Part shown: positions 7,233-40,663 of the stretch, piece by piece
Layout of the letters: each line of letters begins with the position of its first letter
Position numbering within the stretch: position 1 is the stretch's first letter
Origin: an uncultured beta proteobacterium
GTDB taxonomy: Bacteria > Pseudomonadota > Gammaproteobacteria > Burkholderiales > Burkholderiaceae_C
Assembly: GCA_903856025.1 (NCBI GenBank)
Contig: CAIOAQ010000368.1
Location: 1-40,847, forward strand
Length of the DNA: 40,847 nt
Reading direction: 5' to 3'
The notes under the pieces: model-generated
Seen by the model: the letters and a program-made list of their open reading frames with translations, nothing else
Databases searched by the model: none
Told to the model about the DNA's origin: nothing
Made by a program: the position numbers and the translations under genes

Positions 7233-8017
7233 AGCCGATGGCGCTGATGGACAAGGATGCCCGCGTGATGGCAGGTTTGGCTACCGCCACGCTGCGGCCC
7301 GAACCCGTCTTTGCCCTGGGTGCCGCCAGCGTGCATTTTGGGCAGTCGGCACGTGCGGTTCGGGCCTTGTCAGATGTGACCCTGCAGATTCATCCCGGCG
7401 AGCGGGTGGCCCTGGTGGGGGCCAATGGCTGCGGCAAGAGCACCTTGCTGCGCTTGCTGCACGGGTTGTTGAAGCCGACGGCAGGTCATGTTCAAAGCGC
7501 AGACCGTCTGCGTCAGGCCATGCTGTTTCAAAAACCGCACCTGATGCGCCTGTCGGTGCAGGCCAATATCGCCATGGGGCTGTGGCTGAGTGGCACGCCC
7601 TGGCGCACCGCCAAAACACGGGCTTTGGAGGCGCTGGCATGTGTCGGTTTGACCGAATTGGCGCAGCGCAGTGCACGTCAACTCTCAGGCGGCCAGCAAC
7701 AAAGGGTGGCCATGGCGCGCGCCTGGGCGTTAAGCCCGCAAGTGCTGCTGCTCGACGAGCCCACCGCCAGTCTGGACCCGCATGCCAAGCGCGAGGTGGA
7801 GGCGCTGATTGAAGCGTTCGCCAGCGGTCCCAACGCCATGACGCTGGTTTTTGCCAGCCACAACCTCGGTCAGGTCAAGCGCCTGGCCAGCCGGGTGATC
7901 TATTTGGAGCATGGTCGTGTGCTGGCAGATTTGCCTGTGGACGATTTTTTTGGTGGATCGTTGTTGCAGCAGCACTACCCGGCAGCGCATCTTTTTGTCA
8001 AAGGAGAATTGGTATGA
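7229..8017 (+). CDS. tupC: Tungstate ABC transporter ATP-binding protein
   Basis: Walker A GANGCGKS, signature LSGGQQQR, Walker B LLLDEPT; overlaps both tupB stop and tupA start by 4 nt. Confidence 0.88.
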   Translation: MKPMALMDKDARVMAGLATATLRPEPVFALGAASVHFGQSARAVRALSDVTLQIHPGERVALVGANGCGKSTLLRLLHGLLKPTAGHVQSADRLRQAMLFQKPHLMRLSVQANIAMGLWLSGTPWRTAKTRALEALACVGLTELAQRSARQLSGGQQQRVAMARAWALSPQVLLLDEPTASLDPHAKREVEALIEAFASGPNAMTLVFASHNLGQVKRLASRVIYLEHGRVLADLPVDDFFGGSLLQQHYPAAHLFVKGELV

Positions 8018-34764: not shown

Positions 34765-34821
34765 GCGGCCATGCTACGCCATTCAAATCACTTTGCCAAC
34801 CACATATTGATACCAAATGTA

Positions 34822-34883
34822 TCTGGCTATTTAAAGCTATACCTCTCGTTTTTAAAGTGTTTATCGCTATAAATTTGGAAGCA
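34822..34883 (-). repeat. Dispersed fixed-spacing element, copy 5 (intergenic, more degenerate right arm)
   Basis: Minus strand: TGCT tccaaattt ATAGC gataaacactttaaaa ACGAGAGGTA tagctttaaata. Confidence 0.72.
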
Positions 34884-34885
34884 CG

Positions 34886-36028
34886 TCAGATGACACGGGT
34901 GCTGGGCCTTTGCCCCAATTTGCGGTACAGCGTGGCGCGGCTAAGTCCCAACGCGCGAGCCGCCTGGCCAACGTTGCCACGGGCATCCTCCAGCGCCTTG
35001 CGGATCATGGCGGCTTCTACATCCCGCAAAGCCATGGCGGGTGTGGCGCTCAAGCCGGTTTGGAGCAGTTCCGTTTCGTTGGCGCGGGCAATGGCTTGAG
35101 CTTGCAGCCGCAGCCCACTCCACAGGGGCAATTCCAGCACCTGGCCGGGGCGTTTGGCGGCATCAAAAAGTTGCTCAAACGCCAGGCCAAACACCTCGGT
35201 CACCTGCACCATGCATTGCCCCGGCGCGGGCAGTCCTGGCACCAGTTGGCGCGCCACCGGGTTGGCAGCGGTGATCCGTCCATCGCCGTCCAGGCACAGC
35301 AGGCCATCGGCTTCTGTGCCAAAGGTATTGCCGGGCCAGTTCAGTCGCAGCATCAGCGCGTGGGGTTGCGCGCTGACCAGTGCATTTTCAATTTTGCTGG
35401 CCGACTGCATCACCAGGTGCTTGAGTTCCGGGCGCTCCTGGGCATCTACCCCGGTCACATCCAGCATGCCGACACACGCACCATCCGGCCCGAACAGGGG
35501 CGCACCGGCACAGCTGTAGCTGGACGTGGCTTCAAAAAAATGCTCGCCCCGGTGCAGCCAGACCGGCTGGAGCTCTGCCAAAGCGGTGCCAATGGCGGTG
35601 GTGCCAATGTGGCGCTCGGACAAATCGGTGCCCACGCGGGTGATCAGGTGGGCGCGACGATCGGTGTGGTCAATGGCACCACAGGCATCCACCACCACAC
35701 CCTGGGCATTGGTCAAAATGGCAAAGTAGCGGGTGTTGACAATGGCACGCGCCAGCCCTTGCAGGATCGGCTGCGCGGCCTGAATCAGCGGGTGGTTGGC
35801 TTCCAGCGTGCGCTTGAGTTGGGTGACATTGATCTGATCAAAGGACACCTGGGCCTGGGGTTGGAGTCCGGCATTCAGGCAACGCTGCCAGGACCGCTCC
35901 ACCCACGGCGCCACCCAGCCGGGGCTCAACGGGGCACGCCGCTCCAATACGGTCTGACGTGCCTGGGCGATCTGCGCCAGACGTGGCGAAGGTGGTGACA
36001 GGTCTGTGGAAGCGCTTGCGGGGTTCAT
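34886..36028 (-). CDS. GAF plus Fis-HTH regulator lacking the AAA+ domain
   Basis: SWQRCL, GTTAIGTAL, EHFF, YSCAGAPLFGPDG (AcoR-type GAF); C-terminal GNVGQAARALGLSRATLYRKL; no Walker A or GAFTGA. Confidence 0.88.
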   Translation of the reverse strand: MNPASASTDLSPPSPRLAQIAQARQTVLERRAPLSPGWVAPWVERSWQRCLNAGLQPQAQVSFDQINVTQLKRTLEANHPLIQAAQPILQGLARAIVNTRYFAILTNAQGVVVDACGAIDHTDRRAHLITRVGTDLSERHIGTTAIGTALAELQPVWLHRGEHFFEATSSYSCAGAPLFGPDGACVGMLDVTGVDAQERPELKHLVMQSASKIENALVSAQPHALMLRLNWPGNTFGTEADGLLCLDGDGRITAANPVARQLVPGLPAPGQCMVQVTEVFGLAFEQLFDAAKRPGQVLELPLWSGLRLQAQAIARANETELLQTGLSATPAMALRDVEAAMIRKALEDARGNVGQAARALGLSRATLYRKLGQRPSTRVI

Positions 36029-36133: not shown

Positions 36134-36283
36134 GAATGGGGCAGTACCCGGTTTGGTTAGGGTTAGTCCTAGGTCACTGAGCGCACCAAACCTCAACAAT
36201 GGCTATGCATTTAATTTCATAAGAACTGCGCTGCATAAGTGCCGTTCGATTTAGGTTTTTCATCATCCACTGGAGAGACACAT

Positions 36284-36760
36284 ATGCAAAAGGTGTTGCA
36301 CATCAACGCAGACAAGTGCACCGGCTGTCTGCAATGCGAAATGGCCTGTTCCTTTGAGAACTACGGCACGTTTGCCACCGCCAAATCGCGCATCAAGGTA
36401 TTCAACTTTCACCATACCGGCAAGAAAGTCCCTTACACCTGCACCCAGTGCGACGAAGCCTGGTGCCTGCATGCCTGCCCGGTGGAAGCCATCACGGTGG
36501 ACAAGCTCACGGGCGCAAAAGTGGTCAACGAATCCACCTGCGTGGGCTGCAAGGTCTGCACCATCGCCTGCCCGTTTGGCACCATCAATTACGTTCAGGA
36601 AACCGGCAAGGTGCAAAAGTGCGACCTGTGCGGTGGTGAGCCGGCCTGCGCGGACGCTTGCCCCACCGGAGCCATCACCTTCATCGACGCCAACTGGACC
36701 GGTTTGGGCAAGATGGAACAGTGGGCTGACAAGCTCGGCAATCAACCTACAGCAGCTTAA
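36284..36760 (+). CDS. 4Fe-4S polyferredoxin subunit of aldehyde oxidoreductase (AorA-like)
   Basis: Four Cys clusters (CTGCLQCEMAC, CTQCDEAWCLHACP, CVGCKVCTIACP, KCDLC..CADACP); ATG 36284 with GGAG RBS. Confidence 0.9.
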   Translation: MQKVLHINADKCTGCLQCEMACSFENYGTFATAKSRIKVFNFHHTGKKVPYTCTQCDEAWCLHACPVEAITVDKLTGAKVVNESTCVGCKVCTIACPFGTINYVQETGKVQKCDLCGGEPACADACPTGAITFIDANWTGLGKMEQWADKLGNQPTAA

Positions 36761-36772
36761 GGAGAATCAATC

Positions 36773-38626
36773 ATGTCATGGGCTGGAAAAATCCTGCGCG
36801 TCAATCTGACTGCTGGCACCGTCAAATCTGAACCACTCAACATGGACTGGGCGCAAGCCTACATCGGCTCGCGTGGCCTGGGTACCAAGTACCTGGTCGA
36901 AGAAGTCGATGCCAAAGTCGACCCGCTCTCACCCGAGAACAAAATCATCTGGGCCACCGGCCCACTCACCGGCACCATGGCCTCCACAGGTGGGCGCTAC
37001 ACCGTCATCACCAAAGGCCCGCTGACCGGCGCCATTGCCTGCTCCAATTCGGGCGGCTACTGGGGTGCCGAGTTCAAGATGGCAGGCTGGGACATGGTCA
37101 TCTTCGAGGGCAAGTCCGCCAAACCGGTCTACCTGTACGTCAACGACGACGTGGCCGAGCTGCGCGACGCCACCCACCTGTGGGGCAAGAGCGTCTGGGA
37201 AACCGAAGAAATCATCAAAAAAGGCCTGCAAGACCCACTGACGCGCGTCTCCAGCATCGGCAAGGCCGGCGAGAACGGCGTGTTGTTTGCCGCCGTGGTC
37301 AACGACCTGCACCGCGCCGCGGGCCGCTCGGGCGTGGGGGCGGTCATGGGCAGCAAAAACCTCAAGGCCATTGCTGTGCGCGGCACCAAGGGCGTGGGCA
37401 ATATCCGTGACCCCAAAGCCTTCATGACGGCAGTAAAGGCCGCCAAAAAGGTGCTCGCTGAGAACGGTGTCACCGGCACCGGCCTGCCTGCCATGGGCAC
37501 CCAGGTGCTGATGAGCGTGATCAACGAAGTAGGTGGGTTGCCCACCCGCAACCACCAGGACAACCAGTTCGAAGGGGCCAAGGACATCGGAGCAGAAGCC
37601 ATGGCCAAACCCCGCGAAACCGACGGTAAAAAACACCTGGTCACCAACCAGGCGTGTTTTGGCTGCACCATCGCCTGTGGGCGCATCAGCAAAATGGACG
37701 AAGGCCACTTCACCATCGAAAACAAGCCCCAGTACCGCGGTGCCAACGGCGGCCTGGAATACGAAGCCGCCTGGGCACTGGGCGCGGCCAACGGCGTGAA
37801 CGACCTGGAATGTCTGCAATACGCCAACCTGCTGTGCAACGAAGAGGGCATTGACCCGATCAGCTTTGGTGCCACCGTGGGCGCGGTGATGGAACTCTAT
37901 GGCATGGGTGTGCTGACAAAAGAGCAAATTGGCATTGAGGCGCCCTTTGGCTCAGCCCGTGCGCTGGCCTTTTTGGCCGAGGAAACCGTCAACGGTCGCG
38001 GCTTTGGCAAGGAAATCGGCCAGGGCTCCAAACGCCTGACCGCCAAGTACGGCCACCCGGAACTGTCCATGTCCAGCAAGGGCCAGGAATTCCCGGCCTA
38101 TGACGGTCGCGCCATTCAGGGCATTGGCCTGGCTTATGCCACCAGCAACCGGGGCGGCTGCCACCTGCGCGGTTACACCATCGCCTCAGAAATTCTGGGC
38201 ATTCCGGTCAAGACCGACCCGCTGGAGTCTGCTGGCAAGCCCGAGTTGGTCAAAGCCTTCCAGGATGCCACCGCCGCGTTTGACTCATCGGGCCTGTGCA
38301 TCTTCACCACCTTTGCCTGGGGCCTGCAAGACCTGTCACCGCAAATGCAGGGTGCCTGTGGCGAGCAGTACACCATTGAAGAACTGGCCAAGATTGGTGA
38401 GCGCATCTGGAACATGGAGCGCGAGTTCAACAACCGCGCTGGCTTCACTAACAAAGACGACAGCCTGCCCGCGCGCTTGACGACGGCGGCTGAGGCTTGT
38501 AAAACCGGACCAGCCAAAGGCAAGTTCAACGAACTGGCCACCATGCTGCCTTTGTACTACGCGGCCCGCGGCTGGGACACCGAAGGCCGCCCGACCGCTG
38601 AAACGCGCGAACGTCTGAGCCTTTAA
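36773..38626 (+). CDS. aor: Tungsten-containing aldehyde:ferredoxin oxidoreductase family catalytic subunit (AorB-like)
   Basis: GKILRVNLT, TKGPLTG..SNSGG, AAGRSGVGAVMGSKNLKAI, CFGCTIACGR, LEYE, ATSNRGGCH, DSSGLCIF. Confidence 0.95.
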   Translation: MSWAGKILRVNLTAGTVKSEPLNMDWAQAYIGSRGLGTKYLVEEVDAKVDPLSPENKIIWATGPLTGTMASTGGRYTVITKGPLTGAIACSNSGGYWGAEFKMAGWDMVIFEGKSAKPVYLYVNDDVAELRDATHLWGKSVWETEEIIKKGLQDPLTRVSSIGKAGENGVLFAAVVNDLHRAAGRSGVGAVMGSKNLKAIAVRGTKGVGNIRDPKAFMTAVKAAKKVLAENGVTGTGLPAMGTQVLMSVINEVGGLPTRNHQDNQFEGAKDIGAEAMAKPRETDGKKHLVTNQACFGCTIACGRISKMDEGHFTIENKPQYRGANGGLEYEAAWALGAANGVNDLECLQYANLLCNEEGIDPISFGATVGAVMELYGMGVLTKEQIGIEAPFGSARALAFLAEETVNGRGFGKEIGQGSKRLTAKYGHPELSMSSKGQEFPAYDGRAIQGIGLAYATSNRGGCHLRGYTIASEILGIPVKTDPLESAGKPELVKAFQDATAAFDSSGLCIFTTFAWGLQDLSPQMQGACGEQYTIEELAKIGERIWNMEREFNNRAGFTNKDDSLPARLTTAAEACKTGPAKGKFNELATMLPLYYAARGWDTEGRPTAETRERLSL

Positions 38627-38735: not shown

Positions 38736-40031
38736 ATGACCCACCACGTCATCCTCGGTGCCGGCCCTGCAGGCGTGATTGCCGCCGAGACTATTCGCAA
38801 ACTGGCACCCCTTGATGCCATCACCCTCATCGGCGACGAGCCCGAGCCGTCGTACTCGCGCATGGCCATCCCGTACCTGCTGGCAGGCAACATTCAGGAG
38901 TCAGGCACCTACCTGCGTAAAACCCCGAGCCATTTCGCAGATCTAAAGATAAATGTGCTTCAAGCCCTCGTGAAGTCTGTGCAAGCAGCTACAAAAACAA
39001 TAGTGCTTACCAACGGCGAAAGCATCAGCTTTGACACCTTGCTGATCGCCACCGGCTCGCACCCGGTGAGCCCACCCATTCCCGGCATCCAGTGCGAGGG
39101 CGTGCACACCTGCTGGACGCTGGCCGATGCACGCGCCATCATGCAACTGGCCAAACCGGGCGCGCGGGTGTTGCAGCTGGGTGCCGGTTTCATTGGCTGC
39201 ATCATCATGGAAGCCCTGGCCGCGCGTGGCGTGAAATTGAGCGTGGTCGAGATGGGTGACCGCATGGTGCCGCGCATGATGGGCGAAGTAGCAGGTGGCA
39301 TGATCCGTGACTGGGTGGCTGCCAAGGGCGTGGAGGTGTTTACCTCGACCCGCGTGGAGTCGATCACACCGGGCGCACCGCTGCAAGTCAAGCTCTCCAA
39401 CGGCCGCACCGTGCAGGCGGACCTGGTCATCAGCGCCGCCGGGGTGCGCCCGGCCATCGGCTACCTGGAGCATTCCGGCATCACCTGCTTGCTGGGGGTG
39501 CTGACCGATGAACATTTGCAAACCAATGTGCCGGGCATCTATGCGGCCGGGGACTGCGCCGAAGCCTTGGACAAGGTCAGTGGCAAGATGATGGTGAGCG
39601 CGATCCAGCCCAACGCGGCCGAGCAGGCACGCGTGGCCGCGGCCAACATGGTGGCGTATGCCAGAGGTTTGCCCGCAAAAACCGAACTCAAAGGTGTCAC
39701 ACAAATCAACGTGCTGGACACTTTAGGCTTGATTTCCAGCAGTTTTGGTGACTGGCAAGGTGTGTCGGGGGGCGAGCATGCCGAATTGACCGATCAAGCC
39801 GCTGGTCGTCACCTGAGCCTGCAGTTCAAGGACGACGTGCTGGTGGGCTGCAACAGCGTGGGCTGGACTGAACACGTTGGCGTGATGCGTGGGCTGGTGG
39901 AGGGCCAGGTGCACCTGGGCGACTGGAAAGACCAGCTCAAGGCGGATCCGACCCTGCTGATGCAAGCCTATCTGGCCTGCGCACAGGGACAGGGCCAATG
40001 GTCGGGTGCGAATGATGCACGTGTGCGTTAA
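38736..40031 (+). CDS. FAD-dependent NAD(P)H oxidoreductase subunit (AorC-like)
   Basis: GAGPAG, LLIATGS, GAGFIG, SAAGVRP, TNVPGIYAAGD; ATG 38736 with GGAG RBS. Confidence 0.9.
   Translation: MTHHVILGAGPAGVIAAETIRKLAPLDAITLIGDEPEPSYSRMAIPYLLAGNIQESGTYLRKTPSHFADLKINVLQALVKSVQAATKTIVLTNGESISFDTLLIATGSHPVSPPIPGIQCEGVHTCWTLADARAIMQLAKPGARVLQLGAGFIGCIIMEALAARGVKLSVVEMGDRMVPRMMGEVAGGMIRDWVAAKGVEVFTSTRVESITPGAPLQVKLSNGRTVQADLVISAAGVRPAIGYLEHSGITCLLGVLTDEHLQTNVPGIYAAGDCAEALDKVSGKMMVSAIQPNAAEQARVAAANMVAYARGLPAKTELKGVTQINVLDTLGLISSSFGDWQGVSGGEHAELTDQAAGRHLSLQFKDDVLVGCNSVGWTEHVGVMRGLVEGQVHLGDWKDQLKADPTLLMQAYLACAQGQGQWSGANDARVR
38944..39005 (-). repeat. Dispersed fixed-spacing element, copy 6 (inside the FAD-subunit CDS, frame intact)
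   Basis: Minus strand: CACT attgttttt GTAGC tgcttgcacagacttc ACGAGGGCTT gaagcacattta. Confidence 0.8.
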
Positions 40032-40049: not shown

Positions 40050-40304
40050 GTGAAAATCACCTTGAAACTTTTTGCGTCCTTGACCGACTACCTGCCACCC
40101 GAGGCGAAATACACCAATGTGATGGCGCTGGACATCACGCCAGACACCACCATTGGTCAGCTGGTTGAGCAGTTTAGTTTGCCCGAAAAATTGGTCCATC
40201 TGGTGCTGGTGAATGGCGCTTACATAGCACCAGACAAACGCGCATCGCAAACGCTGCATGAGGGTGATGTGCTAGCCATCTGGCCGCCCATCGCCGGTGG
40301 CTAA
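40050..40304 (+). CDS. MoaD/ThiS-family sulfur carrier protein
   Basis: MKITLKLFASL, LVLVNG, LHEGDVLAIWPPIAGG with C-terminal GG. Confidence 0.92.
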   Translation: MKITLKLFASLTDYLPPEAKYTNVMALDITPDTTIGQLVEQFSLPEKLVHLVLVNGAYIAPDKRASQTLHEGDVLAIWPPIAGG

Positions 40305-40309
40305 TTTTC

Positions 40310-40371
40310 ATATAATAAATTGGCCCCTAGCCCTCGTAAATACAGGGTATACAGCTATCAACTATGCAGTC
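40310..40371 (-). repeat. Dispersed fixed-spacing element, copy 7 (overlaps ATG 40364)
   Basis: Minus strand: GACT gcatagttg ATAGC tgtataccctgtattt ACGAGGGCTA ggggccaattta. Confidence 0.82.
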
Positions 40372-40663
40372 TTTTTACCCTGAACGCTTTGAGCGCGACA
40401 TGGGCTGCACCGAAGCCGACTGGCTGCGCTGGCTGCCCGGTGCGGTGGGCGACCTCCACTGGAAATTACAAACCGGCACGGCGGGTGTGCGCGTGGGCGA
40501 TGGTGCATTGGGCTTGAAGTGGCAGGTGGCTGAGCCGCGGGTGATCGCTCAGGTGAGCATGCCGCGCCTGTTGGTGAGTTTCCGGTTTGGCGGGGTCAGC
40601 GACAGCGAGCGCCAAGCGTTCATGACACGGTTTGATCTGTACATGCAGCGCGGGGGTGGTTGA
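40364..40663 (+). CDS. Small hypothetical protein ending in RGGG, last gene of the aor cluster
   Basis: 99 aa, co-oriented with the operon, host-like codon use; ERDMGCTEADWLRWLP ... RFDLYMQRGGG. Confidence 0.75.
   Translation: MQSFYPERFERDMGCTEADWLRWLPGAVGDLHWKLQTGTAGVRVGDGALGLKWQVAEPRVIAQVSMPRLLVSFRFGGVSDSERQAFMTRFDLYMQRGGG

What the first reader, a model, noticed from the sequence alone, without database searches (positions are those of the whole stretch)
38944..39005. The element is written into a conserved enzyme core without adding residues
Seen: copy 6 lies in the FAD-subunit CDS and encodes LKINVLQALVKSVQAATKTIV. It uses A/T-ending codons (CTA, ATA, CTT, CAA, ACA, AAA) that contrast with the GC-ending codons on either side. 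Established: pyridine nucleotide-disulfide oxidoreductases have a segment like 'gi.l.....V..id...k.V.l.dGe.i.yD.LliATG' here, and this peptide fits that slot by eye. Inference: the motif overlays the protein code rather than being an insertion, unlike Rickettsia palindromic elements, which add residues. That implies selection for the DNA motif itself, or an overwrite-type spreading mechanism.
Basis: partly seen in the sequence, partly recalled or inferred. Interest (0 to 1): 0.8.

Follow-up and report, generated by a model that had tools for sequence, protein, structure and literature searches.

The report
DNA signal overprinted on enzyme codons
A roughly 65-base DNA motif, present about 600 times in this bacterium's genome, lies over 21 codons of an aldehyde-oxidising enzyme subunit without changing the protein's length, and it likely grew there letter by letter as a protein-read signal, possibly for selective DNA uptake, whose reader is still unidentified.

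Summary
Confirmed. A matrix built only from intergenic copies scores window 38942-39008 (minus strand) at 53.6 bits. It covers codons 70-90 of aorC, the FAD subunit of a tungsten aldehyde oxidoreductase. None of 80 orthologues, nor PDB 8C0Z_E, lacks these residues.

Codon choice there follows the motif in 23 of 27 motif-rich genomes and 3 of 24 motif-poor ones, and it relaxes in nested lineages that lost the motif genome-wide. Copy 6 is one of 237 coding sites among 605. Against a motif-free relative, 88 of 148 testable sites are within 3 residues in length and gap-free ones keep ancestral residues in register; 21 lie in segments 11 or more residues longer.

Two corrections: the segment is a tolerant, variable stretch, not an invariant core, and template overwriting is not supported. 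Fixed spacing, ~11-bp A/T phasing, no hairpin covariation, lineage dialects and near-absence from plasmids fit a protein-read DNA signal behaving like Neisseria/Haemophilus uptake sequences. Competence genes do not track it and no reader was found.

Fragments appear unexplained in Tong et al. 2017, and this scan reported this or a like element in at least eight findings on other genomes.

The parts
38942..39008 (-). Copy 6 of the ~65-bp motif, antisense to aorC, over codons 69-91 (peptide 70-90 = 38943-39005)
   Evidence: 53.6 bits with a matrix from intergenic copies only; HMM E 4.3e-7 with this copy masked in training
38736..40031 (+). aorC-like FAD subunit of a tungsten aldehyde oxidoreductase, 431 aa; host gene of copy 6
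   Evidence: Pfam Pyr_redox_2; PDB 8C0Z_E, E 3.6e-150
36773..38626 (+). AFOR-family catalytic subunit (aorB-like), context; no motif copy
   Evidence: AFOR_N and AFOR_C
36239..36760 (+). 4Fe-4S ferredoxin subunit (aorA-like), context
   Evidence: Fer4 families
40050..40304 (+). ThiS/MoaD-like gene, context
   Evidence: ThiS, Ub-Mut7C; gene call
40308..40374 (-). Motif copy that fills the ~59-nt gap after the MoaD-like gene and overlaps the next start codon
   Evidence: 59.6 bits; same place in 7 relatives; most relatives without it have a shorter gap
34820..34886 (-). Motif copy, intergenic
   Evidence: 37.6 bits
30343..30409 (+). Motif copy between convergent genes
   Evidence: 75.3 bits
21265..21331 (+). 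Motif copy, intergenic, just after a stop codon
   Evidence: 64.6 bits
17064..17130 (+). Motif copy between convergent genes, overlapping a gene end
   Evidence: 50.5 bits
8031..8097 (-). Motif copy over the first codons of the tupA-like tungstate-binding protein gene (if it starts at 8014)
   Evidence: 47.1 bits; TupA match below cut-off

Best explanation
The stretch is one of about 600 copies of a fixed-geometry ~65-bp DNA motif that overlays this gene's codons without adding residues, and it likely arose in place by base substitution as a signal read by an unidentified protein, most likely a DNA-uptake receptor for natural transformation. Shown: the overlay, DNA-level constraint at synonymous positions, in-register retention of ancestral residues and bases, and loss of the site's codon bias where a lineage loses the motif genome-wide. 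Inferred and untested: fragments carrying better matches are taken up and recombined more often, so any tolerated mutation towards the consensus spreads by molecular drive, filling gene ends, linkers and tolerant protein segments such as aorC 70-90. About 0.9 that it is an in-place, protein-read signal; about 0.42 that the process is uptake.
For: In place: 60 of 148 testable coding sites are gap-free over 44 codons against motif-free G096, with 46% identity in register vs 8% shifted. At 57 such sites, first/second codon positions under low-information motif positions keep 66% outgroup identity (flank 77%), and 88-92% of differences at high-information positions are to the consensus base. Trans-dependence: synonymous excess p<0.01 in 23 of 27 motif-rich vs 3 of 24 motif-poor genomes, with about five nested declines on the gene tree. 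Protein readout: no Watson-Crick covariation across dyad arms in 268 copies, only neighbour-base dependence; AA/TT period peaks at 11 bp; G309 switched both arms of the middle dyad together (AGCCCTT..AAGGGCT vs AGCGCTT..AAGCGCT in G147). Uptake-like pattern, compared with PMC2817400 passages: two of six frames hold 188 of 237 coding sites; density 4.3, 5.2, 17.7, 14.7 and 4.1 per 100 kb from no-homologue to >=80%-identity genes; 0 sites in 86 kb of contigs under 50% GC vs 20 per 100 kb above 58%; 18 pairs closer than 500 bp vs 40 expected; no strand preference; 1 site in 1.50 Mb of five Comamonadaceae plasmids vs 63-76 matches per Mb in four motif-rich genomes; lineage dialects. comEC and dprA carry sites; 19 sites in 37 repair/replication/competence genes vs 6.9 expected, post hoc. 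Natural competence is shown for Acidovorax temperans and A. facilis, and sequence-selective uptake for Verminephrobacter eiseniae (PMC4212676).
Against: No reader was found and no uptake assay exists. comEC (77 of 78), pilQ (76 of 78), PilE/ComP-family pilin (75 of 78) and dprA (78 of 78) occur in motif-rich and motif-poor genomes alike. Three motif-rich genomes look defective: G052 has no comEC match, G148 has a split comEC and a truncated pilQ match, and complete G218 has no pilQ match at E<=1e-100 although it has pilM. V. eiseniae, the one family member with selective uptake, shows none of this motif's pairs in the Tong table (its genome was not searched directly). Density (1 per 6.7 kb) is about six times below neisserial DUS (0.89 per kb), the motif is far longer than known uptake signals, and it has dyads whereas those are not palindromic. 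The protein cost looks larger than for DUS (identity 0.46 vs 0.65 in flanks). 21 of 148 sites lie in segments >=11 residues longer than the outgroup, against 10.7 expected in equally divergent control windows. Four motif-rich genomes lack the synonymous excess at this site. Kin are not independent, and the repair-gene excess falls to 11 vs about 6 without the four genes noticed first (hand calculation).
Confidence: 0.42

Rival explanations
1. The motif is the binding site of a lineage-specific chromosome-organising or topology protein (nucleoid protein, SMC or topoisomerase partner) that wraps ~65 bp; selection for roughly one site per 7 kb keeps sites wherever they are tolerated, including inside genes.
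For: Length, three dyads and 11-bp A/T phasing suit a wrapping complex. Sites run all round two complete chromosomes on both strands (KS p 0.69 and 0.21), are evenly spaced and favour convergent gaps (82 of 240) over tandem (197 of 1199) and divergent ones (18 of 401). Competence genes do not track the motif. Five selected temperate-phage records carry 15 distinct sites in 198 kb.
Against: Large plasmids of motif-bearing species are almost empty. Single sites are dispensable (4 of 27 motif-rich genomes lack the signal here) and the whole system has decayed repeatedly. Ordinary selection would have to pay for rewriting residues in MutL, LpxB-like and MutS proteins when free intergenic space exists. 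No origin or terminus pattern. No candidate protein found.
Confidence: 0.28
2. Another self-recognition drive: the motif favours its own transfer or survival through phage or gene-transfer-agent packaging, recombinase loading, or protection from a host nuclease.
For: It predicts the same in-place growth, core-genome bias and dialects. Temperate phages carry sites: 27 of 121 viral pattern loci score >=38 bits at GC above 50%. Weak leading-strand bias, 61% in both complete chromosomes if position 1 is the origin, which was not checked.
Against: No strong polarity as Chi-like or packaging signals have (recalled property); both orientations are mixed throughout. A protective tag should also mark resident plasmids, which are nearly empty. 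No such gene was linked to the motif.
Confidence: 0.14
3. A miniature mobile or template-copied element: copies were inserted, or written over near-matches from a master copy, and later trimmed and domesticated.
For: The copy at 40308-40374 fills a gap that is usually 0-30 nt in relatives without it. 21 of 148 coding sites lie in longer segments, some close to the motif's length (+25 in a MoeA-like protein, +22, +20). dprA of many motif-rich and motif-decayed genomes has a broken profile match where G000 carries a site. A RAYT-like gene is present.
Against: Copies are near-independent draws: nearest-neighbour identity 0.68 vs 0.65 after column shuffling, and the closest pairs printed share flanking sequence too. 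No target duplication (3.41 vs 3.34 +/- 0.06), no hairpin covariation, no Rfam match. Length gains show no peak at 20 residues and only a two-fold excess over matched controls. Ancestral residues and bases persist inside the motif. The RAYT-like gene is also in motif-free G096 at 70% identity. Motif-poor relatives show remnants consistent with later deletion.
Confidence: 0.14
4. Coincidence: the protein sequence or codon usage happens to spell the motif.
For: The peptide in motif-rich lineages is itself partly motif-compatible (expected score about -1 to -30 bits).
Against: Orthologues from genomes with no pattern match score -33 to -84 bits; none of 2000 recodings reaches the observed score. 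236 sites in coding interiors vs 2, 9 and 5 in three synonymous shuffles.
Confidence: 0.02

Closest known systems
DNA uptake sequences: DUS of Neisseriaceae and USS of Pasteurellaceae (PMC2817400, passages; PMC2397512, passages)
   Same: Hundreds of dispersed copies in both orientations, more even than random, overlaying codons in preferred frames at permissive positions of core genes, scarce in foreign and in highly conserved genes, with lineage dialects; arise without insertion.
   Different: About 65 bp with three dyads against 9-12 bp non-palindromic cores; about six times sparser; no closely spaced inverted pairs forming terminators; larger effect on the protein; no receptor or uptake assay.
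Unexplained spaced motif pairs of Tong, Schliekelman and Mrazek 2017 (PMC5217627; section 13 read, supplement rows seen)
   Same: ATAGCT(N)22CAAAAG in Polaromonas naphthalenivorans, GCTTAT(N)5AAGCG in Acidovorax ebreus and the Rhodoferax ferrireducens rows seen (2 of 140; 34% of that genome's pair copies in genes) look like fragments of this element.
   Different: The paper lists pairs only; it does not assemble the element, examine coding copies or propose a mechanism.
Rickettsia palindromic elements (as summarised in PMC10969869, passages)
   Same: A repeat found inside many unrelated genes in frame.
   Different: RPEs are ~150-bp insertions that add a peptide; here 88 of 148 testable sites change length by 3 residues or fewer and keep ancestral residues.
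REP/BIME and RAYT systems; BRE of Betaproteobacteria (PMC3110155, passages)
   Same: Dispersed, near gene 3' ends, enriched between convergent genes.
   Different: No hairpin covariation, no tandem arrays, 39% of sites deep in genes; BRE is a ~90-bp, 69% GC repeat, a different sequence class.
Short chromosome-architecture sites (matS, SlmA sites, parS, KOPS, Chi; recalled, no call)
   Same: Protein-read DNA sites that can overlay coding sequence.
   Different: Those are short, few or polar, or confined to a chromosome region; this motif is long, abundant, unpolarised and uniform.

Membership tests
DNA uptake sequence (DUS/USS) | Fragments carrying the motif are preferentially taken up | not testable with these tools
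   No assay; selective uptake is reported for V. eiseniae without an identified signal
DNA uptake sequence (DUS/USS) | Dedicated receptor whose presence tracks the motif (ComP-like) | tested here: inconclusive
   PF16732 pilins in 75 of 78 genomes of both groups; specificity cannot be read from presence
DNA uptake sequence (DUS/USS) | Host has transformation machinery | tested here: met
   G000 has comEC, pilQ, dprA; so do motif-poor genomes; 3 motif-rich genomes look defective
DNA uptake sequence (DUS/USS) | Arises in place, overlays codons with frame bias at permissive positions | tested here: met
DNA uptake sequence (DUS/USS) | Core-genome bias; scarce in foreign genes and highly conserved genes | tested here: met
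DNA uptake sequence (DUS/USS) | Short non-palindromic core at about one per kb | tested here: not met
   ~65 bp, three dyads, 1 per 6.7 kb; so not a member of the two known families, whatever it does
Rickettsia palindromic element / MITE | Insertion adds its full length to the protein | tested here: not met
   No indel at copy 6; 61 of 148 sites net zero, 8 of 148 at +16 to +25
Rickettsia palindromic element / MITE | Target-site duplication and families of near-identical copies | tested here: not met
REP/BIME or structured RNA | Stem pairs covary | tested here: not met
   Observed pairing equals column expectation at the dyad pairs in 268 copies; in the G147 list 28 of 29 copies with G at position 39 keep G at 25 (counted by eye); no Rfam match
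Chromosome-architecture site | Polarity or confinement relative to origin and terminus | tested here: not met
   Uniform on two complete chromosomes; 61% leading-like only (first 100 of 117 matches for G147)
Chromosome-architecture site | Bound in vivo by a nucleoid or topology protein | not testable with these tools
   No ChIP or footprint data

The most novel reading that the evidence does not exclude
Comamonadaceae carry a third, independently evolved DNA-uptake-type signal, several times longer than the two known ones and read by DNA wrapping, whose drive has rewritten ~20-residue stretches in hundreds of proteins per genome, drifts into lineage dialects and is switched off repeatedly; or the same motif marks an unknown chromosome-wide DNA-wrapping system.
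Probability: 0.6. Interest if true: 0.88.

Novelty: new variant of a known kind. Interest (0 to 1): 0.72.

Why it matters
Only two bacterial families are known to have uptake sequences. A ~65-bp signal in a large environmental family would be a third case, or a new kind of chromosome signal. It is strong enough to reshape about 20 residues at each of some 240 coding sites per genome. It also distorts local codon usage and protein alignments in these genomes.

Tried and rejected
Rfam: no match in the window. Hairpin or RNA structure: rejected on covariation. BRE repeat: different length and GC. Replichore polarity: suggested by a partial listing, rejected on the full list. Reader by presence/absence: comEC, pilQ, PilE/ComP and dprA do not separate 42 motif-rich from 36 motif-poor genomes; pilM was tested on 5 genomes only. 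Reading 118 G000 genes missing from syntenic blocks of G096 and 57 small basic proteins without a G096 hit gave no candidate I could defend; none was tested further. The RAYT-like gene is shared with motif-free G096. blastn of one copy against plasmids found nothing. Sequencing runs: no RNA holder listed; contigs from four DNA runs confirmed the sequence in the probable source run and showed only other organisms' shorter gap at 40300-40364. The frame counts printed were miscomputed for minus-strand sites and replaced. 160 kb of G096 (2.42-2.58 Mb, holding dprA and probably recA) was not obtained, so a few genes were wrongly classed as having no homologue. Flanking DNA of the complete congener G147 was not obtained, so site turnover and dialect tracking between congeners stay untested beyond single examples. 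No structure model was made. One search opened an unrelated paper by a wrong id. Not-in-print claim: searches of the open library found only Tong et al. 2017; subscription journals and bioRxiv supplements were not searchable.

Full report
1. The observation. The ORF 38736-40031 encodes a 431-aa Pyr_redox_2 protein in an operon with AFOR and ferredoxin subunits. It matches PDB 8C0Z_E at E 3.6e-150; from the search listing (abstract start only) this is the AorC-type FAD subunit of a tungsten aldehyde oxidoreductase. The peptide is residues 70-90, 38943-39005. An HMM iterated with this copy masked finds it at E 4.3e-7 among 464 hits at E<=0.01, with no hit better than E 4.7 on the reversed genome. 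A 67-position matrix from 182 intergenic copies gives 53.6 bits. The window holds seven copies.

2. No residues are added here. 77 of 80 orthologues have no indel in codons 60-100; the other three lack the motif at this site and have one extra residue. The solved homologue aligns gap-free across the segment. The segment is not invariant core: entropy 1.66 against 0.61, 10th of 410 windows, and 1.48 against 0.50 among 18 motif-free orthologues.

3. The DNA is constrained, and the constraint depends on the genome. None of 2000 synonymous recodings of the peptide reaches the observed score (z 6.0). Genome-wide pattern counts were obtained for 50 of the 80 orthologue genomes. With G000, the synonymous excess is p<0.01 in 23 of 27 motif-rich and 3 of 24 motif-poor genomes (thresholds set by me after seeing the counts; kin are not independent). 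Codon identity in the segment is 0.71 against 0.60 elsewhere among 18 motif-rich orthologues, and 0.51 against 0.58 among 18 motif-free ones. On the gene tree, built without the segment, motif-poor lineages are nested among motif-bearing ones about five times (L007/L012/L024; L010; L022; L055/L057/L061; L019/L068/L077), each with a weaker or absent site. Sampled DNA shows remnants: 1 site in 46 kb of G311, 0 in 59 kb of G319, 3 in 80 kb of G310, against 15 per 100 kb in G000. Four motif-rich genomes (L018, L029, L034, L075) lack the excess at this site, so the single site is dispensable.

4. It is a genome-wide property. G000 has 605 sites of 20 bits or more (0 on the reversed genome); 236 lie in coding interiors against 2, 9 and 5 in three synonymous shuffles (genes called by my own script). 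Of 237 deep coding sites, 102 and 86 fall in two of six frames. Against motif-free G096 (2.43 of 2.59 Mb obtained, no site of 15 bits or more), 85 sites had no orthologue at 45% identity, 4 were not spanned and 148 were testable: net length change 0 in 61, within 3 residues in 88, +4 to +10 in 21, +11 or more in 21, -4 or less in 18. Controls matched for divergence predict 10.7 at +11 or more, so there is a two-fold excess of longer segments but no peak at 20. The 60 gap-free sites keep 46% identity in register against 8% shifted. At 57 such sites, first/second codon positions under low-information motif positions keep 66% outgroup identity, and 88-92% of differences at high-information positions are to the consensus base. 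This is gradual change in place, not block overwriting.

5. Anatomy. Consensus TTGCTAT-N7-ATAGC, then GCGC-like and GGGCTA-like arms, then GAGGCC-N-ATTT. Spacing is fixed. Pairing across dyad arms equals column expectation; the strongest dependence is between neighbouring bases, such as TT or AA at positions 52-53. AA/TT frequency peaks at an 11-bp period. Nearest-neighbour identity is 0.68 against 0.65 for shuffled columns and there is no target duplication. Lineages have dialects; G309 changed both arms of the middle dyad together. I infer a two-fold symmetric protein complex reading bent or wrapped double-stranded DNA.

6. Distribution. The pattern occurs in 91 of 301 family genomes, 59 of 166 genera (low counts overlap the control). 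In an order-wide sample only single hits occur outside the family, in 3 of 196 genomes. Sites are uniform round two complete chromosomes on both strands. They avoid divergent gaps, low-GC contigs and close neighbours, and both highly conserved and homologue-less genes. Five plasmids of Rhodoferax ferrireducens T118, Polaromonas JS666 and P. naphthalenivorans CJ2 hold 1 site in 1.50 Mb, against 63-76 matches per Mb in four motif-rich genomes; the plasmids' own host chromosomes were not measured by me. Temperate-phage records carry it: 27 of 121 viral loci score 38 bits or more, and five hand-picked records hold 15 sites in 198 kb (biased by selection).

7. Mechanism. The pattern repeats most of what Findlay and Redfield (PMC2817400, passages) and Treangen et al. 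(PMC2397512, passages) describe for uptake sequences. comEC and dprA carry sites, and the comEC site is at the same offset in G000 and G218. A set of 37 repair, replication and competence genes picked by recalled motifs has 19 sites against 6.9 expected; this was post hoc and drops to 11 against about 6 without four genes noticed first. Davidson et al. (PMC4212676, passages and part 1 of 2 of the Discussion) show competence in two Acidovorax species and sequence-selective uptake in Verminephrobacter eiseniae without naming a signal. Against: competence genes do not separate the groups and three motif-rich genomes look defective; V. eiseniae shows none of these pairs in the Tong table; length, dyads and density differ from known signals. 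I give uptake drive 0.42, a chromosome-organising site 0.28, another self-recognition drive 0.14, a mobile or template-copied element 0.14, coincidence 0.02. The insertion reading keeps some weight from the filled gap at 40308-40374 and sites such as +25 in a MoeA-like protein (name recalled from the sequence).

8. Prior description and verdict. Tong et al. 2017 (PMC5217627; section 13 and supplement rows) list fragments as unexplained. Eight other library searches are named under Tried and rejected. Eight earlier notes of this scan describe this or a like element on other genomes and six name uptake sequences as closest; I had reached that comparison before and count them as no support. Verdict: real, apparently undescribed as a whole, works like an uptake sequence but is not a member of either known family; new variant of a known kind, interest 0.72.

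Noticed in passing
window:40300-40364 and L020, L064, L068, L071, L074, L077, L078: The gap after the MoaD-like gene hosts different repeats in different lineages: this motif in eight, a REP-like sequence in L020/L068/L077 and another GC-rich repeat in L064/L071/L074/L078.
   Followed up: partly
G000:C380 (dprA) and one search list: In 17 of 78 genomes the dprA profile match starts at position 40-46 instead of about 3-18, at the place where G000 carries a motif copy; these are motif-rich genomes plus three motif-decayed ones, suggesting a shared insertion in DprA.
   Followed up: no
G096, G226, G233, G189, G334, G336, G338: These motif-free genomes have short PilQ frames (about 500-590 aa against about 720), and G096 has no full pilM match, hinting at a reduced type IV pilus system.
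   Followed up: partly
G148:C1:3227819-3248429: comEC is split by about 20 kb in this complete, motif-rich genome, as expected for a mobile element integrated in comEC.
   Followed up: no
G393:C86:456-498: One near-perfect copy in a genome of another family that has no other match; transfer or binning contamination.
   Followed up: no
G000:C240 gene 1: A 142-aa protein whose start resembles the Avd four-helix accessory protein of diversity-generating retroelements (judged by eye, recalled family).
   Followed up: no
window:8921-9721 (-): A gene resembling ice-binding proteins (NF045625, E 1.2e-82, below cut-off) sits next to the tungstate transporter genes.
   Followed up: no
window:36547-37405: The probable source run also holds a second contig of equal depth with 111 differences over this part of the AOR operon: a paralogue or a co-occurring relative.
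   Followed up: no
window:40666-40730: A weak motif-like remnant after the last small gene, where at least eight relatives have a strong copy in the same orientation despite different downstream genes; it does not score in register in this genome.
   Followed up: partly
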